IMG/VR virus record: IMGVR_UViG_3300024333_000003
Source: a virus
Lineage: Duplodnaviria > Heunggongvirae > Uroviricota > Caudoviricetes
Strand: one strand, 5' to 3'
Length of the DNA stretch: 64,000 nucleotides
The translations under genes and the position numbers were made by a program. The notes beneath the pieces were generated by a model, which saw only the letters and a program-made list of their open reading frames with translations, searched no databases and had not been told where the DNA came from. Of this stretch, positions 15,875 through 21,054 are shown one piece after another. Every line of letters begins with the position of its first letter. Positions within the stretch are counted from its first letter, which is position 1.

Positions 15875-16132
15875 ATGAACTGGAAATGCTGTAAAAAGAC
15901 AATTGTCGATGCCCTCTATAACTATGACTTAATTGATATTCGATATAAGATTATCGGTTGCCTAGGTAGTATGTTAATAGGAAGTATTATTTATATTTTC
16001 GATCATAGTTTGGAAGGCCTTTTGTATTGGTGTTTTGGTGCAATTATGCCATGGCCTATTATTCATGTGTTAGTACGTACGAAAGAATGGTATGAAAGCT
16101 ACGTTACTTATCGAGAACAAAGACTTCATTAA
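15875..16132 (+). CDS. hypothetical membrane protein
   Basis: two hydrophobic helices. Confidence 0.3.
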   Translation: MNWKCCKKTIVDALYNYDLIDIRYKIIGCLGSMLIGSIIYIFDHSLEGLLYWCFGAIMPWPIIHVLVRTKEWYESYVTYREQRLH

Positions 16133-17165
16133 AAAATACTCTAATGAGTACGGGGAAAGATTAGTATTAATAACACCACAGTATCAGGGGTGTGCTTGGG
16201 ACAAGATGAACCTGATATTTCGAAGTTCTATCTGGACCGAAGACGGTTATTTAGTTAGCCCCAGCTTTCCAAAGTTTTTTAATTGGAATGAAAAAGATAA
16301 TTTAGTACCGCCTCCGCAGAGTTTAATCAATACTACGGCTGTAGAGAAGATCGACGGTAGTGCATTAATAGTAACTCCTTACAAAGGACAACTTATCATA
16401 CGTACACGAGGTACATTTAATGCCGATATTTTTGAGAATTTTGATGAAATCAAGTTTTTCAAAAAAGAGTTTCCCAAGGCATTTGATTTTTCTGATGAAA
16501 CATGCACCCGTATATTTGAATGGTATAGTCCAAAAAATAAAATTGTATTGGATTTAGGAAAAACTCCGCGATTGTTCTTAGTAGGTATAATAAGGCACGA
16601 AGACTATAGTTTATACACTCAAGCTTCATTGGACCTCATAGCTCGTCAGCTTGGCGTTGAAAGGCCTGCATCTTTTACTTTTGAATCTGTAGAGCATTTA
16701 TTAGAGGAGGTACAAAGATTCGATGGTAAGGAGGGGGTCTGTTTATACTATGATTTGGATCAACACATAAAAAAGATCAAAGGCGATAAATATTTGGCTG
16801 TGCACGCATTTAAAAGCGATCTCAGTATAAATAATTTATTGGAAGCCTATACACTTTATGGTAGACCCAAGTACCAAGATTTTTATAATTATATTGCCAA
16901 TACATATGATTTTGAATGCGCTGAAATAGCTAAAGGAGACATTTCAAGATTATGTGATGCCAATAAGGAAGTTGAAAAAATAGTCGAGCATATGAAAGTA
17001 TTTGCGAATGATTGTAAATTACTGTCTCGAAAAGAAGCCGCGTTAAAGATTACACAAGCCTACGGCAAAACCAGCCGTGCGGGATTTGTGTTTACATTAT
17101 TAGACGGCCGGCAGCTCGACGCGGAAGCATACAAAAAACTCTTACATCAGGTGATACCAAAATGA
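16092..17165 (+). CDS. ATP-dependent RNA ligase (T4 Rnl1-like)
   Basis: motif I VEKIDGSALIV (KxDG); size ~357 aa; sits close to Pnkp as in T4 tRNA repair. Confidence 0.55.
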   Translation: MKATLLIENKDFIKKYSNEYGERLVLITPQYQGCAWDKMNLIFRSSIWTEDGYLVSPSFPKFFNWNEKDNLVPPPQSLINTTAVEKIDGSALIVTPYKGQLIIRTRGTFNADIFENFDEIKFFKKEFPKAFDFSDETCTRIFEWYSPKNKIVLDLGKTPRLFLVGIIRHEDYSLYTQASLDLIARQLGVERPASFTFESVEHLLEEVQRFDGKEGVCLYYDLDQHIKKIKGDKYLAVHAFKSDLSINNLLEAYTLYGRPKYQDFYNYIANTYDFECAEIAKGDISRLCDANKEVEKIVEHMKVFANDCKLLSRKEAALKITQAYGKTSRAGFVFTLLDGRQLDAEAYKKLLHQVIPK

Positions 17166-17569
17166 ATATAAAATTAGGATCAAAGATCGTTCCTCGCAAA
17201 AATAGTAATAGTCATAACTATGAACTCGGCAAAACATATGAAGTGTATACACATCCAATATCTATGGGTGCGGTCTGTACATTTTCAGCAAAAGACCCAG
17301 TAACCGGTACAATTGGAAATACTTTACTCAGTACGGACTGCGAACTAGCGATAGTTACTAGAGATGAACTAAAAGAGGAACTTGAGCGGTTAGAGAGGGA
17401 AATCGACCTTGTTCAGGCGAAACTTGACTGGATGGATGAATTTAATGCAGATACACTTAATCCAGAAGAATTTCGTGTTTTTCATATATTACAAGAAGCC
17501 AATTATACTGGAAAAACGTTACTTGAGCGATCTCGAGCTATAGTGAAGATTCTGAACGAAAATGCCTAA
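17162..17569 (+). CDS. hypothetical protein with coiled-coil segment
   Basis: ELKEELERLEREIDLVQAKL. Confidence 0.35.
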   Translation: MNIKLGSKIVPRKNSNSHNYELGKTYEVYTHPISMGAVCTFSAKDPVTGTIGNTLLSTDCELAIVTRDELKEELERLEREIDLVQAKLDWMDEFNADTLNPEEFRVFHILQEANYTGKTLLERSRAIVKILNENA

Positions 17570-17981
17570 GAAAATATCTGCCGGTGCCATTATCACTGAT
17601 GGCACCGTGTTTCTTGTATGCCACGCAACAGGACAGAAAATTTGGGATATTCCCAAAGGTGGTGTTGATCCTAATGAGAATTTTCTTGAAGCGTGCATTC
17701 GTGAGGTCAAAGAAGAAACTAACTATGATGTACCAGAGACAGCTGTAATCGAGGAACTTGGACAGTTTACATATTTACCGGCCAAAGATCTCTATTTATT
17801 CAAGATCACTGTTGAGCCGTTACCTAATATCGATTATATGAAATGTACGTCGATGGTAAATCTTCCAGACAAACCTCCATTTCCCGAGGTTAACGCATTT
17901 AAGTATATTTATCCAAGGGTTGCTGATGAATATATATCACAAAATCTAAAACGCACATTAGTAATGGCAGGAGTACTATGA
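17562..17981 (+). CDS. Nudix hydrolase
   Basis: Nudix box GGVDPNENFLEACIREVKEETN. Confidence 0.75.
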   Translation: MPKKISAGAIITDGTVFLVCHATGQKIWDIPKGGVDPNENFLEACIREVKEETNYDVPETAVIEELGQFTYLPAKDLYLFKITVEPLPNIDYMKCTSMVNLPDKPPFPEVNAFKYIYPRVADEYISQNLKRTLVMAGVL

Positions 17982-18886: not shown

Positions 18887-19734
18887 TTATATGCCGAGGA
18901 TTACCTGCGAGCGGCAAATCAACTTGGGCTAAAAAATACGCCGCAGATCACAGCGGTGTTGTAATTGTAAATCGTGATACATTACGTTTGGAAAATCCAG
19001 GCCGCGGGGAACAATTTATACGAGATTTACGCGATGAGCGTATAAACAATGCACTATGCGCCGGTTTCGATGTAATATCCGATGATACAAACTTGATACC
19101 CAAAACATTTGACGCACTTGTAGCACTGGCTACAAGTAACAATGTTGCGTATGAAGTACAAGATTTCACTGATATATCTGTAGAAGAGTGTATTAGACGA
19201 GATGTCGGCAGACCAAATGCTGTGGGCGAAAAAGTCATTAGAAGCTTTGTAAAATATATTCACATGGCAAAGCGACAGCCTATTGTGTCTACTACATCAA
19301 ATCTCCCAAATGCAATACTATGTGATTTAGATGGTACATTGGCTTTATTTAATGGCCGCGGACCATTTGAAACAGAGAAATGCGAAACCGACTTGCTGTC
19401 AATACCTGTTGCGCGTGTATTAGAAGCAGTACGTTCTTTATACTTGCAAGAGGGTAATACTTTAAGTATAATATTAATGTCAGGCCGTGAAGACAAATTT
19501 CGTCCTCATACTGAACGATGGCTTGCCAAGAATAATATATTTTATGACGAATTGTACATGCGTAAAACAAAAGATATGAGAGCGGATCAAATAGTAAAGC
19601 GTGAATTATTCGATGCACACGTTGCAAACAAATATAATGTTTTATTCGTACTAGATGACCGTGATAAAGTTGTACGTATGTGGAGACATGACTTAAACCT
19701 AACAGTTTTTCAAGTTGCTGAAGGAAATTTTTAA
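18874..19734 (+). CDS. pnkp: polynucleotide 5'-kinase/3'-phosphatase (T4 Pnkp-like)
   Basis: N-terminal P-loop GLPASGKST; C-terminal HAD motif CDLDGTLA plus downstream DD. Confidence 0.7.
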   Translation: MQKLIICRGLPASGKSTWAKKYAADHSGVVIVNRDTLRLENPGRGEQFIRDLRDERINNALCAGFDVISDDTNLIPKTFDALVALATSNNVAYEVQDFTDISVEECIRRDVGRPNAVGEKVIRSFVKYIHMAKRQPIVSTTSNLPNAILCDLDGTLALFNGRGPFETEKCETDLLSIPVARVLEAVRSLYLQEGNTLSIILMSGREDKFRPHTERWLAKNNIFYDELYMRKTKDMRADQIVKRELFDAHVANKYNVLFVLDDRDKVVRMWRHDLNLTVFQVAEGNF

Positions 19735-20013
19735 TTGAATGCAGACCCTGAGCTAGACGAGTATATATGTAGGTATTGTGAAATAGAACCCCCTATCACC
19801 TACTCCAAGCTAAAAAATGCTGCCGACGCTCGGGGTCTTGTTTTATTTTCGTATAACTTAAAAGAAGGTATTCGGCATGTATTGGATCATGACGATCCAA
19901 TATTTCCCTATAAAACTAAAACCGCGGCTTACAGGGAAGGCCTAATACGTTGGATTATAACTAATGGCAAAAATAACGATACAAGTAGATCAAACACCGG
20001 TAATTATAAATGA
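19735..20013 (+). CDS. hypothetical protein, MDxELxxYI paralogue family
   Basis: N-terminus MNADPELDEYICRY. Confidence 0.4.
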   Translation: MNADPELDEYICRYCEIEPPITYSKLKNAADARGLVLFSYNLKEGIRHVLDHDDPIFPYKTKTAAYREGLIRWIITNGKNNDTSRSNTGNYK

Positions 20014-20437
20014 ACAGGATTATGAAGACGTTATTAAATACAGTTGGCACTTAAGATATGGGCGACCTAGAGCAAAAATTTATATACAGTCTTCAATTCC
20101 GAATATTACTTCCCACGCGCACCAAATTCCACTAGACCGTTTTGTACTTAATTTAACACCGTTTAACAATGTAAAAATTATCCATCCATTTGATGATCAA
20201 TTACAGTGTGATCGAAATGACTTGTTTACTACCAAGAAAGACGTTAGTAAGTCTTCAAAATATAATGGAGTGGTGCAGCAACGGAATGGTTTTGTAGCCG
20301 TCGTATTAGGCAATTCATATGGACCGTTTATTTATGAACTAGACGCGGCAAAAAGATATGACGCAGAATTAATCAAAGCTGTGGGATGGCGTGCAAAAAC
20401 AAATTTTTATCAGAATTTAAGGAGCGAATGTCAGTAA
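19964..20437 (+). CDS. AP2-like DNA-binding domain protein
   Basis: SKYNGVVQQRNGFVAVV resembles the AP2 core (YrGVrqr.G.w.A.I). Confidence 0.35.
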   Translation: MAKITIQVDQTPVIINEQDYEDVIKYSWHLRYGRPRAKIYIQSSIPNITSHAHQIPLDRFVLNLTPFNNVKIIHPFDDQLQCDRNDLFTTKKDVSKSSKYNGVVQQRNGFVAVVLGNSYGPFIYELDAAKRYDAELIKAVGWRAKTNFYQNLRSECQ

Positions 20438-21054
20438 ATATAGGTATAGATTGCGACGGTATTATGTTTAATTGGGCTAAGGAATACTCACGTATCATAC
20501 GCAGTATTGGAGGGGAACGATATCCATTGATTACAAACGAAGTGGAAGAAGTCCTGTCATACGATTGGTCAGAATGGTATCCAGCCGATAAAAGTTTGTT
20601 GGATAAGGCCTGGAGAGTCATGACGGAAAAAGAACATTTTTGGGAACACGCCGAAGTGTTAAATCCGAGCCAAGTACAGTATATGTGTGAGCGACTGGAT
20701 AAAGATCCGTATATCAATGTTTATTTTATTACAGCTCGGGTACCGGCAAAAGGAGATACATTAATACGACAGACTATAAAAAGCTTAGAGCTCATAGGAT
20801 GGACGTCACCGCAGGTAATAGTATCATTTCGAAAAGGAGCAATCGCCAGAGCATTAGATTTGCGCTATTTTCTTGACGATCGCGCGGAGAATTGTGTTGA
20901 AGTAGCTATGTATCATGATTCTACTAAAGTATTCATCTTGGATAAACGGTATAATCGCATATTACAAGATAAATATTTTAAAATCACACGTATAAAGCGT
21001 TTAGAAGAGTTTACCGATCAAGTCATAAAAGAACTACATACACCAATGAACTGA
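20386..21054 (+). CDS. HAD-superfamily 5'(3')-deoxyribonucleotidase-like hydrolase
   Basis: N-terminal IGIDCDGIMFNW (DxDG motif I). Confidence 0.45.
   Translation: MACKNKFLSEFKERMSVNIGIDCDGIMFNWAKEYSRIIRSIGGERYPLITNEVEEVLSYDWSEWYPADKSLLDKAWRVMTEKEHFWEHAEVLNPSQVQYMCERLDKDPYINVYFITARVPAKGDTLIRQTIKSLELIGWTSPQVIVSFRKGAIARALDLRYFLDDRAENCVEVAMYHDSTKVFILDKRYNRILQDKYFKITRIKRLEEFTDQVIKELHTPMN

What the first reader, a model, noticed from the sequence alone, without database searches (positions are those of the whole stretch)
16092..21054. RNA healing-and-sealing island: Rnl1-like ligase, Nudix, nucleotidyltransferase, Pnkp, HAD nucleotidase
A KxDG RNA ligase (16092), a Nudix hydrolase (17562), a GS...DxD nucleotidyltransferase (18170) and a bifunctional P-loop kinase / DxDGT phosphatase Pnkp (18874) are contiguous. 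They lie immediately upstream of the tRNA/small-RNA locus. A second ligase with a tRNA-binding OB domain sits at 7902. This is the T4-type toolkit against anticodon-nuclease defences (PrrC/RloC/colicin-like), extended with a nucleotidyltransferase that could rebuild 3' ends.
Basis: partly seen in the sequence, partly recalled or inferred. Interest (0 to 1): 0.65.

Follow-up and report, generated by a model that had tools for sequence, protein, structure and literature searches.

The report
Phage RNA-repair operon beside Ro60
An uncultured jumbo phage carries a tightly packed set of genes for mending cut RNA (end-healing kinase/phosphatase, nucleotide-adding enzyme, RNA ligase), next to a tRNA, unknown structured RNAs and a Ro60 RNA-binding protein; this is a clean but expected example of a kind of phage counter-defence kit that is already described.

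Summary
All five enzymes are at the stated coordinates:
- a T4 Rnl1-family RNA ligase (16092-17165)
- a T4 NudE-type Nudix (17562-17981)
- an RlaP nucleotidyltransferase (18170-18886)
- a full-length bifunctional Pnkp (18874-19734)
- an NT5C-like HAD phosphatase (20428-21054)

The second ligase at 7902 is Rnl5 (DraRnl/NgrRnl) type.

Thirteen same-strand ORFs (13213-21054) have no gap above 6 nt. The order Rnl1-Nudix-RlaP-Pnkp-...-HAD-[tRNA-Ala, structured RNAs]-Ro60 recurs in at least five diverged metagenomic phage lineages.

Most likely mechanism, inferred from homology: Pnkp heals cleaved-RNA ends, RlaP restores lost 3' nucleotides and Rnl1 seals. This would reverse tRNA cleavage by host nucleases.

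- The nucleotidyltransferase is not an extension of the T4 kit. T4 has its own RlaP (NrdC.11) and NudE.
- Nudix and HAD have no demonstrated RNA-repair role.

This layout fits the published description of phage RNA-repair systems, so it is a new member of a known kind. The least-understood part is the conserved 1.7 kb non-coding stretch before Ro60, which holds a tRNA-like element and a roughly 400-nt structured RNA with no Rfam match.

The parts
16092..17165 (+). Rnl1-family ATP-dependent RNA ligase (357 aa). Has K86xD88G89, E143, E214-G215 and K228/K230, and a helical C-terminal domain (232-354).
   Evidence: The NCBIfam T4 RnlA equivalog scores only 41.5 bits against a cutoff of 242, so this is a divergent family member and not an equivalog.
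17162..17569 (+). 135-aa ORF of unknown function. It is a lineage-specific filler between the ligase and the Nudix.
   Evidence: No family hit. It occurs only in near-identical contigs L001-L004. Relatives carry other small ORFs in this slot or none.
17562..17981 (+). T4 NudE-type Nudix hydrolase (139 aa). Nudix box G33-x5-E39-x7-R47-E48-V-K-E51-E52-T-N.
   Evidence: 34% identity over 136 aa to T4 NudE, E 3e-16.
17978..18166 (+). 62-aa ORF of unknown function; lineage-specific filler.
   Evidence: No family hit. Found only in L001-L004.
18170..18886 (+). RlaP (RNA-ligase-associated Pol-beta) nucleotidyltransferase, 238 aa. Has G12-S13, D24-x-D26 and D55.
   Evidence: PF10127, 67 bits; phrog_388, 3e-40. 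31% identity to T4 NrdC.11. Biochemistry of the family.
18874..19734 (+). Bifunctional polynucleotide 5'-kinase / 3'-phosphatase (Pnkp), 286 aa. Kinase half: P-loop G9-T17 with K15/S16, D35, R38. Phosphatase half: D151-x-D153-G-T, R162, R205, D261-D262.
19735..20013 (+). 92-aa ORF (TTG start) of unknown function. It follows Pnkp directly in several lineages.
   Evidence: Found after Pnkp in L005, L009 and L088. No family hit.
19964..20437 (+). 157-aa ORF of unknown function, conserved in relatives. Its C-terminus looks AP2-like by eye only.
   Evidence: Conserved in L005 and L088. No family hit.
20428..21054 (+). NT5C-like HAD phosphatase (208 aa). Has D8-x-D10, T102, K136 and D150-D151.
   Evidence: Shows no hit to the SAK-HAD families.
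21210..21238 (+). Sigma-70-like promoter match (TTGACT-17-TATATT) in front of the RNA locus. The same sequence is present in L005.
   Evidence: This is a consensus match only.
21317..21390 (+). tRNA-Ala(UGC) with G3:U70. It is kept upstream of Ro60 in every lineage of the clade (degenerate in L005).
21478..21605 (+). Candidate small structured RNA. It has a closing stem GGGG/CCCU, an internal loop containing GUCGAAUC, an invariant 8-bp helix, and inner hairpins with compensatory changes.
   Evidence: Alignment A3 and RNAalifold. Only 3 lineages. No Rfam match.
22097..22167 (+). tRNA-like element with an acceptor stem and a canonical T arm, but an aberrant D/anticodon region.
   Evidence: Rfam tRNA, 23.4 bits, below the gathering score of 29. 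Not called by ARAGORN. Fold.
22170..22575 (+). Candidate large structured RNA (about 400 nt here, longer in relatives because of insertions). Conserved core includes UGGUGGAGGUG.
   Evidence: Alignment A4: 81 predicted pairs, 26 with compensatory changes in 3 sequences. The core motif is present in 5 lineages. No Rfam match.
22776..24437 (+). Ro60/Rsr orthologue (TROVE ring plus vWA domain), 553 aa from the ATG that has a GGGAG ribosome-binding site.
   Evidence: PF05731 5e-38 and PF25045 1.8e-54. NCBIfam Rsr 526 bits, full length. phrog_850.
7902..8993 (+). Second RNA ligase, Rnl5 (DraRnl/NgrRnl) type: an N-terminal OB domain plus a nucleotidyltransferase domain, with K183-M-D-G.

Best explanation
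This is a phage-encoded RNA (mainly tRNA) break-repair cassette of the T4 'healing and sealing' type. It is expressed as part of one long co-directional gene chain and sits next to a Ro60 ribonucleoprotein module.

Proposed pathway:
1. A host ribotoxin, such as an anticodon nuclease, cuts a tRNA and leaves 2',3'-cyclic-phosphate or 3'-phosphate and 5'-OH ends.
2. The Pnkp HAD domain removes the 3' phosphate and its P-loop domain phosphorylates the 5'-OH.
3. If a nucleotide was also excised, as RloC does, RlaP adds 1-2 NMP to the 3'-OH.
4. The Rnl1-family ligase seals 3'-OH to 5'-P through lysyl-AMP (K86) and AppRNA intermediates.

The Rnl5-type ligase at 7902 probably seals nicks in duplex RNA. 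The NudE-type Nudix and the NT5C-like HAD are more likely nucleotide, NAD or ADP-ribose housekeeping or counter-defence enzymes that share the transcription unit. Ro60, together with the adjacent tRNA-Ala, tRNA-like element and structured RNAs, plausibly acts as an RNA-binding scaffold or quality-control partner.

Shown here: family membership, catalytic residues, gene packing and conserved synteny. Inferred: substrates, the order of action, the counter-defence role and any Ro60 coupling.
For: Family assignments and catalytic residues:
- Ligase.
- Pnkp aligns colinearly with T4 Pnkp over residues 1-286 against 1-301. The aligned positions I recall as essential in T4 are all conserved.
- RlaP. 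Family biochemistry shows 1-2 NMP added to damaged RNA 3'-OH and rescue of aminoacylation of repaired tRNA.

Operon-like packing:
- No gap above 6 nt across 13 ORFs from 13213 to 21054.
- A strong terminator-like hairpin lies upstream at 13038-13064, and another follows Ro60 at 24446-24469.

Conserved synteny:
- The order Rnl1-Nudix-RlaP-Pnkp-...-NT5C-[tRNA-Ala]-Ro60 is kept in L005/L086, L088, L102 and L103. The genes stay in this order down to 56% Ro60 identity in L103, while the filler ORFs change.
- Among more distant Rnl1 homologues, Pnkp lies within 10 kb in 16 of 84 loci and RlaP in 13 of 84, and many of those contigs are short.

Literature:
- Jumbo phages combine Rnl1/Rnl2, PNK-HAD, RlaP, tRNAs and occasionally TROVE as a counter to tRNA-cleaving defences.
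- In bacteria, rsr and Y RNA genes sit in the RtcB repair operon (PMC7790460).
Against: - There are no functional data. The host, the nuclease and the RNA targets are unknown.
- Most distant Rnl1 homologues show no Pnkp or RlaP within 10 kb. Linkage is therefore not obligatory, and the synteny within this clade could be simple vertical inheritance.
- The ligase C-terminal domain, which gives T4 Rnl1 its tRNA specificity (from my own knowledge), shows no sequence similarity to T4. The HMM alignment ends at residue 259.
- The window holds only one tRNA gene.
- The Nudix and HAD have better-supported non-repair homologues.
Confidence: 0.75

Rival explanations
1. Housekeeping RNA processing rather than counter-defence. 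On this reading the ligase, Pnkp and RlaP mature or maintain the phage's own RNAs encoded next door: tRNA-Ala, the tRNA-like element and the large structured RNA. They might join processed fragments, repair 3' ends or circularise RNAs, with Ro60 acting as chaperone.
For: - The enzymes lie directly upstream of a conserved RNA locus and Ro60 in every lineage of the clade.
- The RNA locus carries covarying structure.
- The same enzymes do tRNA splicing in eukaryotes. The fungal Trl1 ligase domain is among the top fold matches.
Against: - No split or permuted RNA gene was seen, and tRNA-Ala is intact.
- Other phages carry Rnl1, Pnkp and RlaP without this RNA locus.
- The literature links these enzymes to repair of damage inflicted by the host.
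Confidence: 0.12
2. No functional unit. The enzymes are neighbours only because this is the densely packed early or auxiliary region of a jumbo phage, where unrelated host-takeover, NAD and nucleotide genes are collected. Synteny among relatives reflects common descent alone.
For: - The same chain also holds PP2C, a kinase-like protein, the Nudix and an NT5C-like nucleotidase. PARP, NAD synthase, ClpP and RNase H lie nearby.
- Most distant Rnl1 homologues lack Pnkp and RlaP nearby.
- T4 scatters its RlaP and NudE genes far from rnlA and pseT.
Against: - Rnl1, RlaP and Pnkp recur together, in different orders, in contigs with only 49-58% ligase identity (L009, L010).
- In L102 the four enzymes are nearly back-to-back, with only one 64-aa reverse ORF between RlaP and Pnkp, while filler ORFs elsewhere come and go.
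- RlaP was defined by its association with ligases.
- The three activities form one chemically coherent pathway.
Confidence: 0.08
3. The ligase's main role is structural or morphogenetic, like the tail-fibre attachment activity of T4 gp63, or it acts on DNA. RNA repair would then be secondary.
For: The PHROG family annotation reads 'RNA ligase and tail fiber protein attachment catalyst'. This is inherited from T4 gp63.
Against: - That annotation is transferred from T4 only.
- The gene sits among RNA-end enzymes and not among tail genes.
- All ligase catalytic residues are invariant across 24 homologues.
- DNA ligases appear only far down the fold-match list, at E around 1e-3.
Confidence: 0.05

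Closest known systems
Bacteriophage T4 tRNA repair system: Pnkp (pseT), Rnl1 (rnlA/gp63), with Rnl2, the RlaP NrdC.11 and NudE elsewhere in the genome
   Same: - Same enzyme families. Pnkp aligns over its full length (1ltq, 6e-33).
- T4 Rnl1 is the top sequence-profile and fold match for the ligase.
- RlaP is 31% identical to NrdC.11 and the Nudix is 34% identical to NudE.
- T4 also keeps rnlA and pseT a few genes apart (alc and pseT.1-3 lie between them). Its tRNA cluster likewise contains two stable small RNAs of unknown function, rnaC and rnaD.
   Different: - Here all four genes form one contiguous co-directional chain. In T4, nrdC.11 (55 kb) and nudE (67 kb) are far from rnlA (136 kb).
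- The ligase is only about 25% identical to T4 Rnl1 over its catalytic domain, and its C-domain sequence is unrelated.
- The second ligase is Rnl5 type, not Rnl2.
- To my knowledge, T4 has no Ro60/TROVE neighbour.
Modular RNA-repair systems described by Burroughs & Aravind 2016 (from memory; cited as ref. 178 in PMC7824862) and the jumbo-phage survey of Iyer et al. 2021 (PMC7824862)
   Same: The locus contains every element of the described layout: ligase, RlaP nucleotidyltransferase, end-modifying PNK-HAD and a ROT/TROVE scaffold with tRNA-like RNA partners, together with phage tRNAs.
   Different: - This particular lineage and gene order are not in cultured phage records. There is no megablast match, and protein identities to any cultured phage are 32% or lower.
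- The standalone HAD is NT5C-like and not the SAK-HAD of that scheme.
- Ro60 is coupled here to 5'-phosphate ligases, not to RtcB.
Bacterial rsr-yrlBA-rtcBA operon (Salmonella) and YrlA Y RNAs (PMC4201824, PMC7790460)
   Same: - A Ro60/Rsr orthologue with TROVE and vWA domains.
- It is encoded on the same strand, within 4 kb of tRNA-like non-coding RNA and next to RNA-repair enzymes.
- A GUCGAA sequence matches the first six positions of the YrlA motif GNCGAAN0-1G.
   Different: - The ligase is Rnl1/Rnl5, not RtcB. There is no RtcA or RtcR.
- No Rfam family other than tRNA reaches threshold in the locus, and none of the weak matches is a Y RNA.
- The tRNA-like element has an open acceptor stem like a real tRNA.
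- The motif lacks the terminal G.
- The neighbouring RNA is about 400 nt, far larger than a Y RNA.
Bacterial Pnkp1-Rnl-Hen1 repair complex (Capnocytophaga gingivalis; PDB 4xrp)
   Same: The Pnkp here is most similar to Pnkp1 (3e-45, full length). In that system too, the kinase-phosphatase and the ligase are separate proteins.
   Different: No Hen1 methyltransferase is present in the island. The ligase profile matches T4 Rnl1 and not the ligase of that complex.

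Membership tests
Rnl1 (T4 RnlA) RNA ligase family | Covalent nucleotidyltransferase motif I, KxDG, with the lysine nucleophile | tested here: met
   K86-I-D88-G89 is invariant in 24 homologues and aligns with T4 K99-E-D-G.
Rnl1 (T4 RnlA) RNA ligase family | Motifs III, IV and V, plus the Rnl1-specific upstream residues (T4 R54, K75, F77, E159, E227/G228, K240/K242; T4 numbering from my own knowledge of Shuman-lab mutagenesis) | tested here: met
   R44, K61-F62-F63, E143, E214-G215 and K228/K230 are invariant and align to the T4 positions.
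Rnl1 (T4 RnlA) RNA ligase family | All-helical C-terminal domain appended to the nucleotidyltransferase domain | tested here: met
   The model has helices over residues 232-354. Foldseek's best hit is T4 Rnl1 over about 390 alignment columns, E 5.8e-15, TM 0.51. The rmsd is high, presumably from domain orientation. The HMM alignment ends at residue 259, so C-domain sequence similarity is not detectable and tRNA specificity is unknown.
Rnl1 (T4 RnlA) RNA ligase family | Curated score thresholds | tested here: inconclusive
   The Pfam PF09511 gathering score is passed (37.5 against 28.3). The NCBIfam equivalog TIGR02308 is far below its cutoff (41.5 against 242). The protein is a family member but not an equivalog of T4 RnlA.
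Rnl1 (T4 RnlA) RNA ligase family | ATP-dependent sealing of 3'-OH/5'-P breaks in tRNA anticodon loops | not testable with these tools
   Requires biochemistry.
T4-type Pnkp (bifunctional polynucleotide kinase-phosphatase) | N-terminal P-loop 5'-kinase with GxxxxGK[ST] and the Asp/Arg acceptor-site residues (T4 K15, S16, D35, R38, R126; numbering from my own knowledge) | tested here: met
   G9-LPASGK15-S16-T, D35, R38 and R113 (in RRDVGR) align to the T4 residues.
T4-type Pnkp (bifunctional polynucleotide kinase-phosphatase) | C-terminal HAD/DxDGT 3'-phosphatase with the acyl-phosphate aspartate and motifs II-IV | tested here: met
   D151-L-D153-G-T, NGR162GP, SGR205 and D261-D262-R align with T4 D165/D167, R176, R213 and D277/D278. 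PF25109 at 3e-46.
RlaP (PF10127) nucleotidyltransferase | Pol-beta fold NTase signature G-S ... DxD plus a third acidic residue; Pfam threshold | tested here: met
   PF10127 scores 67.2 bits against a cutoff of 23. G12-S13, D24-L-D26 and D55 are all conserved against T4 NrdC.11. That D55 is the third catalytic Asp is inferred.
RlaP (PF10127) nucleotidyltransferase | Gene-neighbourhood association with an RNA ligase | tested here: met
   It lies 1 kb from the Rnl1 gene here and in L005, L009, L010, L088, L102 and L103.
T4 NudE clade of Nudix hydrolases | Nudix box GX5EX7REUXEEXGU and full-length similarity to T4 NudE | tested here: met
   The box G33...E39...R47-E48-V-K-E51-E52-T-N-Y has Asn in place of the penultimate Gly. 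34% identity over 136 of 139 aa, E 3e-16. Substrate not testable.
NT5C-type HAD 5'(3')-deoxyribonucleotidase | HAD motifs I-IV and an NT5C-like fold | tested here: met
   D8xD10, T102, K136 and D150-D151 are conserved (T102 is Ser in one of 7 orthologues). 5 of 7 orthologues hit PF06941, best 1.3e-7, although the window protein itself does not. The top 10 Foldseek hits are mdN/cdN, E about 4e-8, TM 0.6-0.69.
SAK-HAD ('Swiss army knife') RNA-repair phosphatase | Match to the HAD_SAK Pfam families | tested here: not met
   No HAD_SAK hit for the window protein at E up to 10 or for its orthologues at E up to 0.1. A HAD_SAK_2 protein does occur near Ro60 in the unrelated phage locus L104.
Rnl5 (DraRnl/NgrRnl) nick-sealing RNA ligase (gene at 7902) | N-terminal OB domain followed by a nucleotidyltransferase domain with KxDG, and no C-terminal OB | tested here: met
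   PF21189 OB (residues 8-94) plus PF09414 (181-341). K183-M-D-G aligns with the NgrRnl motif I KLDG (K170 by my recollection of NgrRnl numbering); 5cot at 5e-32. TIGR02306 matches over the full length at 124 bits, below the 151 cutoff.
Ro60/Rsr | TROVE (HEAT-repeat ring) domain followed by a vWA domain | tested here: met
   PF05731 at 5e-38 and PF25045 at 1.8e-54. NF041674 Rsr matches over the full length at 526 bits, below the 900 cutoff.
YrlA-type bacterial Y RNA | Rfam/Infernal match; Rsr-site motif GNCGAAN0-1G in the terminal stem; tRNA-like domain whose anticodon position opens into that stem | tested here: not met
   - No Rfam hit even at E up to 10.
- GUCGAA is present at 21485 and 22175, but it is followed by UC and not by (N)G.
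- The tRNA-like element opens at the acceptor stem.
- The locus may still work like a Y RNA, with a stem, internal loop and stem next to Ro60. Ro60 binding is not testable here.

The most novel reading that the evidence does not exclude
In this phage clade, Ro60, the conserved tRNA-Ala(UGC), a degenerate tRNA-like element, repeated 'GUCGRAYC...GUUAUC' stem-loop modules and a roughly 400-nt covarying RNA of no known family might form a new ribonucleoprotein. This particle would capture damaged tRNAs or other RNAs and hand them to the adjacent Pnkp-RlaP-Rnl1 (5'-phosphate ligase) pathway. It would be a phage counterpart of the bacterial Rsr/Y-RNA/RtcB operon, built with a different ligase chemistry and a new, much larger class of Ro60-associated RNA.
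Probability: 0.25. Interest if true: 0.65.

Novelty: new member of a known kind. Interest (0 to 1): 0.33.

Why it matters
As it stands, this is a well-preserved natural example of the complete phage RNA-repair kit in a single transcription-unit-like block. That makes it a convenient source of genes to test two things together:
- the newly described RlaP activity alongside its cognate Pnkp and Rnl1
- whether Ro60 cooperates with 5'-phosphate RNA ligases as well as with RtcB

If the neighbouring non-coding RNAs bind Ro60, they would widen the definition of Y RNAs and give a handle on what Ro60 does in RNA repair, which is still unclear. The locus does not change current understanding of phage counter-defence.

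Tried and rejected
- Near-identity search against 50,697 phage records found no match. The phage is uncultured, and its closest cultured protein hits are 32% identical or less.
- Single-sequence searches against PDB sequences found nothing for the ligase, RlaP or HAD. A profile of the HAD orthologues also found nothing useful. The ligase was resolved with a profile, and ligase and HAD with structure prediction.
- Pfam, PHROGs, NCBIfam and PADLOC gave nothing for the 135-, 62-, 92- and 157-aa ORFs or for the 567-aa kinase-like protein.
- I considered that the standalone HAD is the RNA-repair SAK-HAD. I rejected this because it is NT5C-like.
- I considered that the Nudix is RppH-like or Dcp2-like. 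Those matches are weak (1e-5 to 1e-2), and it is a full-length T4 NudE homologue instead.
- I considered that the structured RNA is RNase P, GOLLD, ROOL, a cobalamin riboswitch or YrlA. None reaches an Rfam threshold. The best is Cobalamin at 14 bits, E 1.3, in L005.
- Exact-word scans for the conserved 18-20-mer of the small RNA returned only the same lineage plus chance hits (viral contigs; metagenome contigs). Covariation therefore rests on 3-5 lineages.
- GTCGAA is not enriched window-wide: 24 observed against 24 expected. Only the 9-mer GGTCGAATC is (2 against 0.16).
- Sigma-70-like promoter matches are at chance level (50 against 49.8), so the operon structure rests on gene packing alone.
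- The Burroughs & Aravind 2016 paper is not held in the library. It is cited through Iyer et al. 2021 and from memory.

Full report
**Provenance.** The window has no near match among 50,697 phage records. The ligase protein occurs identically on metagenomic contigs of up to about 215 kb, so the source is an uncultured jumbo phage. Its genes are almost all on the + strand between 1 and 32 kb.

*Ligase (16092-17165, 357 aa).*
- It passes the Pfam RNA_lig_T4_1 threshold and matches the PHROG of T4 gp63 at 1.9e-33.
- A single-sequence search of PDB sequences found nothing. A profile of 24 homologues (alignment A1) hit T4 Rnl1 at 1.2e-12.
- That alignment puts invariant R44, K61-F62-F63, K86-x-D88-G89, E143, E214-G215 and K228/K230 on the T4 residues I know to be essential from Shuman-lab mutagenesis.
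- The AlphaFold model (pLDDT 92) has an all-helical C-terminal domain.
- Its best Foldseek match is T4 Rnl1 (5.8e-15). Archaeal RNA ligases and fungal Trl1 follow, and DNA ligases appear only near E 1e-3.

*Pnkp (18874-19734).*
- It aligns end to end with T4 Pnkp and with bacterial Pnkp1.
- The kinase P-loop, D35 and R38 are conserved, as are the phosphatase residues D151xD153GT, R162, R205 and D261-D262.
- The second refutation condition, a missing phosphatase half, is therefore not met either.

*Nucleotidyltransferase (18170-18886).*
- It is an RlaP (PF10127, 67 bits).
- It has the G-S and DxD signatures and is 31% identical to T4 NrdC.11.

*Nudix (17562-17981).*
- It has a near-canonical Nudix box.
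- It is a full-length homologue of T4 NudE (34% identity, 3e-16).

*HAD protein.*
- It most likely starts at 20428 (ribosome-binding site and gene calls).
- Pfam misses it, but 5 of 7 orthologues hit NT5C and the four HAD motifs are invariant.
- The model (pLDDT 82.5) matches 5'(3')-deoxyribonucleotidases best.

*Second ligase (7902).* It is Rnl5 type, with an N-terminal OB domain and a nucleotidyltransferase domain; NgrRnl matches at 5e-32.

**Organisation.**
- From 13213 (PP2C phosphatase) to 21054 (HAD), thirteen + strand ORFs follow one another with overlaps or gaps of at most 6 nt.
- A strong terminator-like hairpin precedes this chain at 13038-13064, and a bidirectional one follows Ro60 at 24446-24469.
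- Generic promoter matches are at chance level, so the operon reading rests on gene packing.
- A 1.7 kb non-coding stretch follows the HAD gene. It holds a conserved TTGACT-17-TATATT match and tRNA-Ala(UGC) at 21317-21390.
- It also holds a tRNA-like element at 22097-22167 that scores 23 bits on the Rfam tRNA model, below threshold.
- The stretch ends at a gene for a Ro60/Rsr orthologue with TROVE and vWA domains (22776-24437).

**Conservation.**
- Close relatives were recovered through the ligase and Ro60 proteins: L005/L086, L088, L102 and L103, plus partial L085 and L009.
- They keep the order Rnl1, Nudix, RlaP, Pnkp, two small conserved ORFs, NT5C-like HAD, non-coding region with tRNA-Ala(UGC), Ro60. 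In L103 the ligase is 60% and Ro60 56% identical to the window's.
- The small ORFs between the enzymes differ between lineages. The 135- and 62-aa ORFs of the window are confined to near-identical contigs.
- In L102 the four enzymes are nearly back-to-back. Rnl1, Nudix and RlaP overlap, and only one 64-aa reverse ORF separates RlaP from Pnkp.
- Among 84 loci around more distant Rnl1 homologues, iterative profile searches find Pnkp within 10 kb in 16 and RlaP in 13, in varying order. Linkage is recurrent but not universal, and many of those contigs are short.
- In an unrelated phage locus (L104), Ro60 sits inside an array of 36 tRNA genes, with RtcB upstream and a SAK-type HAD downstream. This is a different assembly of the same functional kit.

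**Mechanism.**
- The chemistry follows from the families. Pnkp converts 2',3'-cyclic-phosphate or 3'-phosphate and 5'-OH ends into 3'-OH and 5'-phosphate. RlaP can add one or two nucleotides to a damaged 3' end. The Rnl1-type ligase seals the break.
- The RlaP step is supported by a 2025 preprint. It shows addition of 1-2 NMP to RNA 3'-OH, a preference for damaged RNA, and a requirement for RlaP to restore aminoacylation of over-trimmed tRNA.
- Family membership and active-site conservation are shown here. Substrate identity, the order of action and the counter-defence purpose are inferred from T4 biology and from comparative genomics of jumbo phages.
- The Nudix belongs to the T4 NudE clade. 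Its characterised member hydrolyses ADP-ribose, FAD and ApnA and decaps NAD-RNA in vitro.
- The HAD has the fold of a deoxyribonucleotidase. I regard both as co-transcribed neighbours with nucleotide or NAD functions unless shown otherwise.
- That reading fits the PARP/WGR, NAD synthase and isochorismatase-like genes upstream.

**Comparison with known systems.**
- The island matches the published layout of RNA-repair systems: ligase, RlaP, end-modifying kinase-phosphatase, TROVE scaffold with tRNA-like RNA, and phage tRNAs (citing Burroughs & Aravind 2016, which I could not open).
T4 has NrdC.11 and NudE, though they are dispersed (55 kb and 67 kb against rnlA at 136 kb).
- What differs from T4 is the contiguity, the Rnl5 paralogue in place of Rnl2, the divergent ligase C-domain, and the Ro60 neighbour.
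- What differs from the bacterial rsr-yrlBA-rtcBA operon is the use of 5'-phosphate ligases instead of RtcB.

**The non-coding region.**
- Three or more lineages share blocks of 75-96% identity.
- One block folds into a stem, an internal loop and an 8-bp helix. The sequence GUCGAAUC lies in the loop, and the inner hairpins show compensatory changes (21478-21605).
- The stretch 22170-22575 aligns with L005 and L088 to give 81 predicted pairs. 26 of them keep pairing through changes on both sides, and lineage-specific insertions reach about 130 nt.
- The core UGGUGGAGGUG of that stretch is present in five lineages.
- GUCGAA matches six positions of the YrlA Rsr-site motif GNCGAAN0-1G, but the final G is missing. 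No Rfam family matches.
- Exact-word scans found no further lineages. These RNAs are real candidates, but the evidence rests on few sequences.

**Verdict.** It is a new member of a known kind of phage RNA-repair system. Interest is modest and comes mainly from the conserved coupling to Ro60 and from the unclassified structured RNAs next to it.

Noticed in passing
window 22170-22575 (with L005 19250-19700, L088 18655-19225, L085 ~3435-3700, L102 ~9370-9800): A large covarying RNA of no known family lies directly upstream of Ro60 on the same strand. RNAalifold predicts 81 pairs, 26 with compensatory changes in 3 sequences. The conserved core includes UGGUGGAGGUG and CGCCAAAAAU. Insertions vary in length between lineages. 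No Rfam hit.
   Followed up: partly
window 21395-21471, 21478-21605 and 22172-~22290: Three paralogous modules share the layout 'closing stem, GUCGRAYC loop, helix, GUUAUC'. The first and third start right after tRNA-Ala and the tRNA-like element. GGTCGAATC occurs twice against 0.16 expected. The layout resembles a Y RNA, but the YrlA motif is incomplete.
   Followed up: partly
window 22097-22167; L005 17850-17926 and ~17930-18015: These are tRNA-like elements that ARAGORN rejects. They have an acceptor stem and a perfect T arm (GGUUCGAAUCC) but an aberrant D/anticodon region with 6-nt loops. In L005 the tRNA-Ala itself is degenerate, keeps G3:U70 and scores as a tmRNA-like tRNA domain (21 bits).
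   Followed up: partly
window 22763-22778 and the equivalent sites in L005, L088, L085, L102 and L103: GGAGUCGAA(C)AUG: the GUCGAA hexamer sits between the Shine-Dalgarno sequence and the start codon of Ro60 in every lineage examined. This could be simple conservation of the leader, or a site where Ro60 regulates its own translation.
   Followed up: no
window 12364-15620: A vWA protein, a PP2C phosphatase and a 567-aa protein lie directly upstream of the ligase in the same gene chain, and are conserved in relatives. The 567-aa protein's N-terminus looks like a Ser/Thr kinase by eye (GGEGQIY...VLKVFK...GDLNDAN...DVD), but no profile detects it. From memory, the set resembles the TerY-P (vWA, PP2C, kinase) triad.
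   Followed up: partly
window 1504-4400 and 11486-12367: NAD-related genes lie upstream: a PARP catalytic domain with WGR (1504-2742), NAD synthase (3552-4400) and a weak isochorismatase/nicotinamidase-like protein (11486-12367). This suggests an NAD+ counter-defence block next to the RNA-repair block.
   Followed up: no
window 8986-9600 and 28987-31167: The phage encodes ClpP and a two-ring ClpA/ClpB-type AAA+ ATPase with a Clp_N domain, which suggests its own Clp protease system. An RNase H gene lies at 10927-11265.
   Followed up: no
window 32558-38638 (- strand): A 2026-aa ORF. The syntenic 2018-2028-aa proteins in L102 and L103 carry both RNA polymerase beta (Rpb2) and beta' (Rpb1) domains, so this is probably a fused multisubunit RNA polymerase. 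The window protein itself was not scanned.
   Followed up: no
L104 1-21665: In an unrelated phage contig, a Ro60 gene (52% identical) sits inside an array of 36 tRNA genes, with RtcB about 10 kb upstream and a HAD_SAK_2 protein downstream. It is an independent example of Ro60 embedded in a phage tRNA and RNA-repair region.
   Followed up: no
L086 11077-11760 (- strand) and the slot between ligase and Nudix in relatives: The gap between the ligase and Nudix genes holds a different insert in each lineage: a 135-aa ORF here, a reverse-strand 227-aa HTH protein in L086, a 96-aa ORF in L088, DUF5659 in L103 and nothing in L102. It looks like an insertion hot spot, perhaps for mobile or homing elements.
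   Followed up: no
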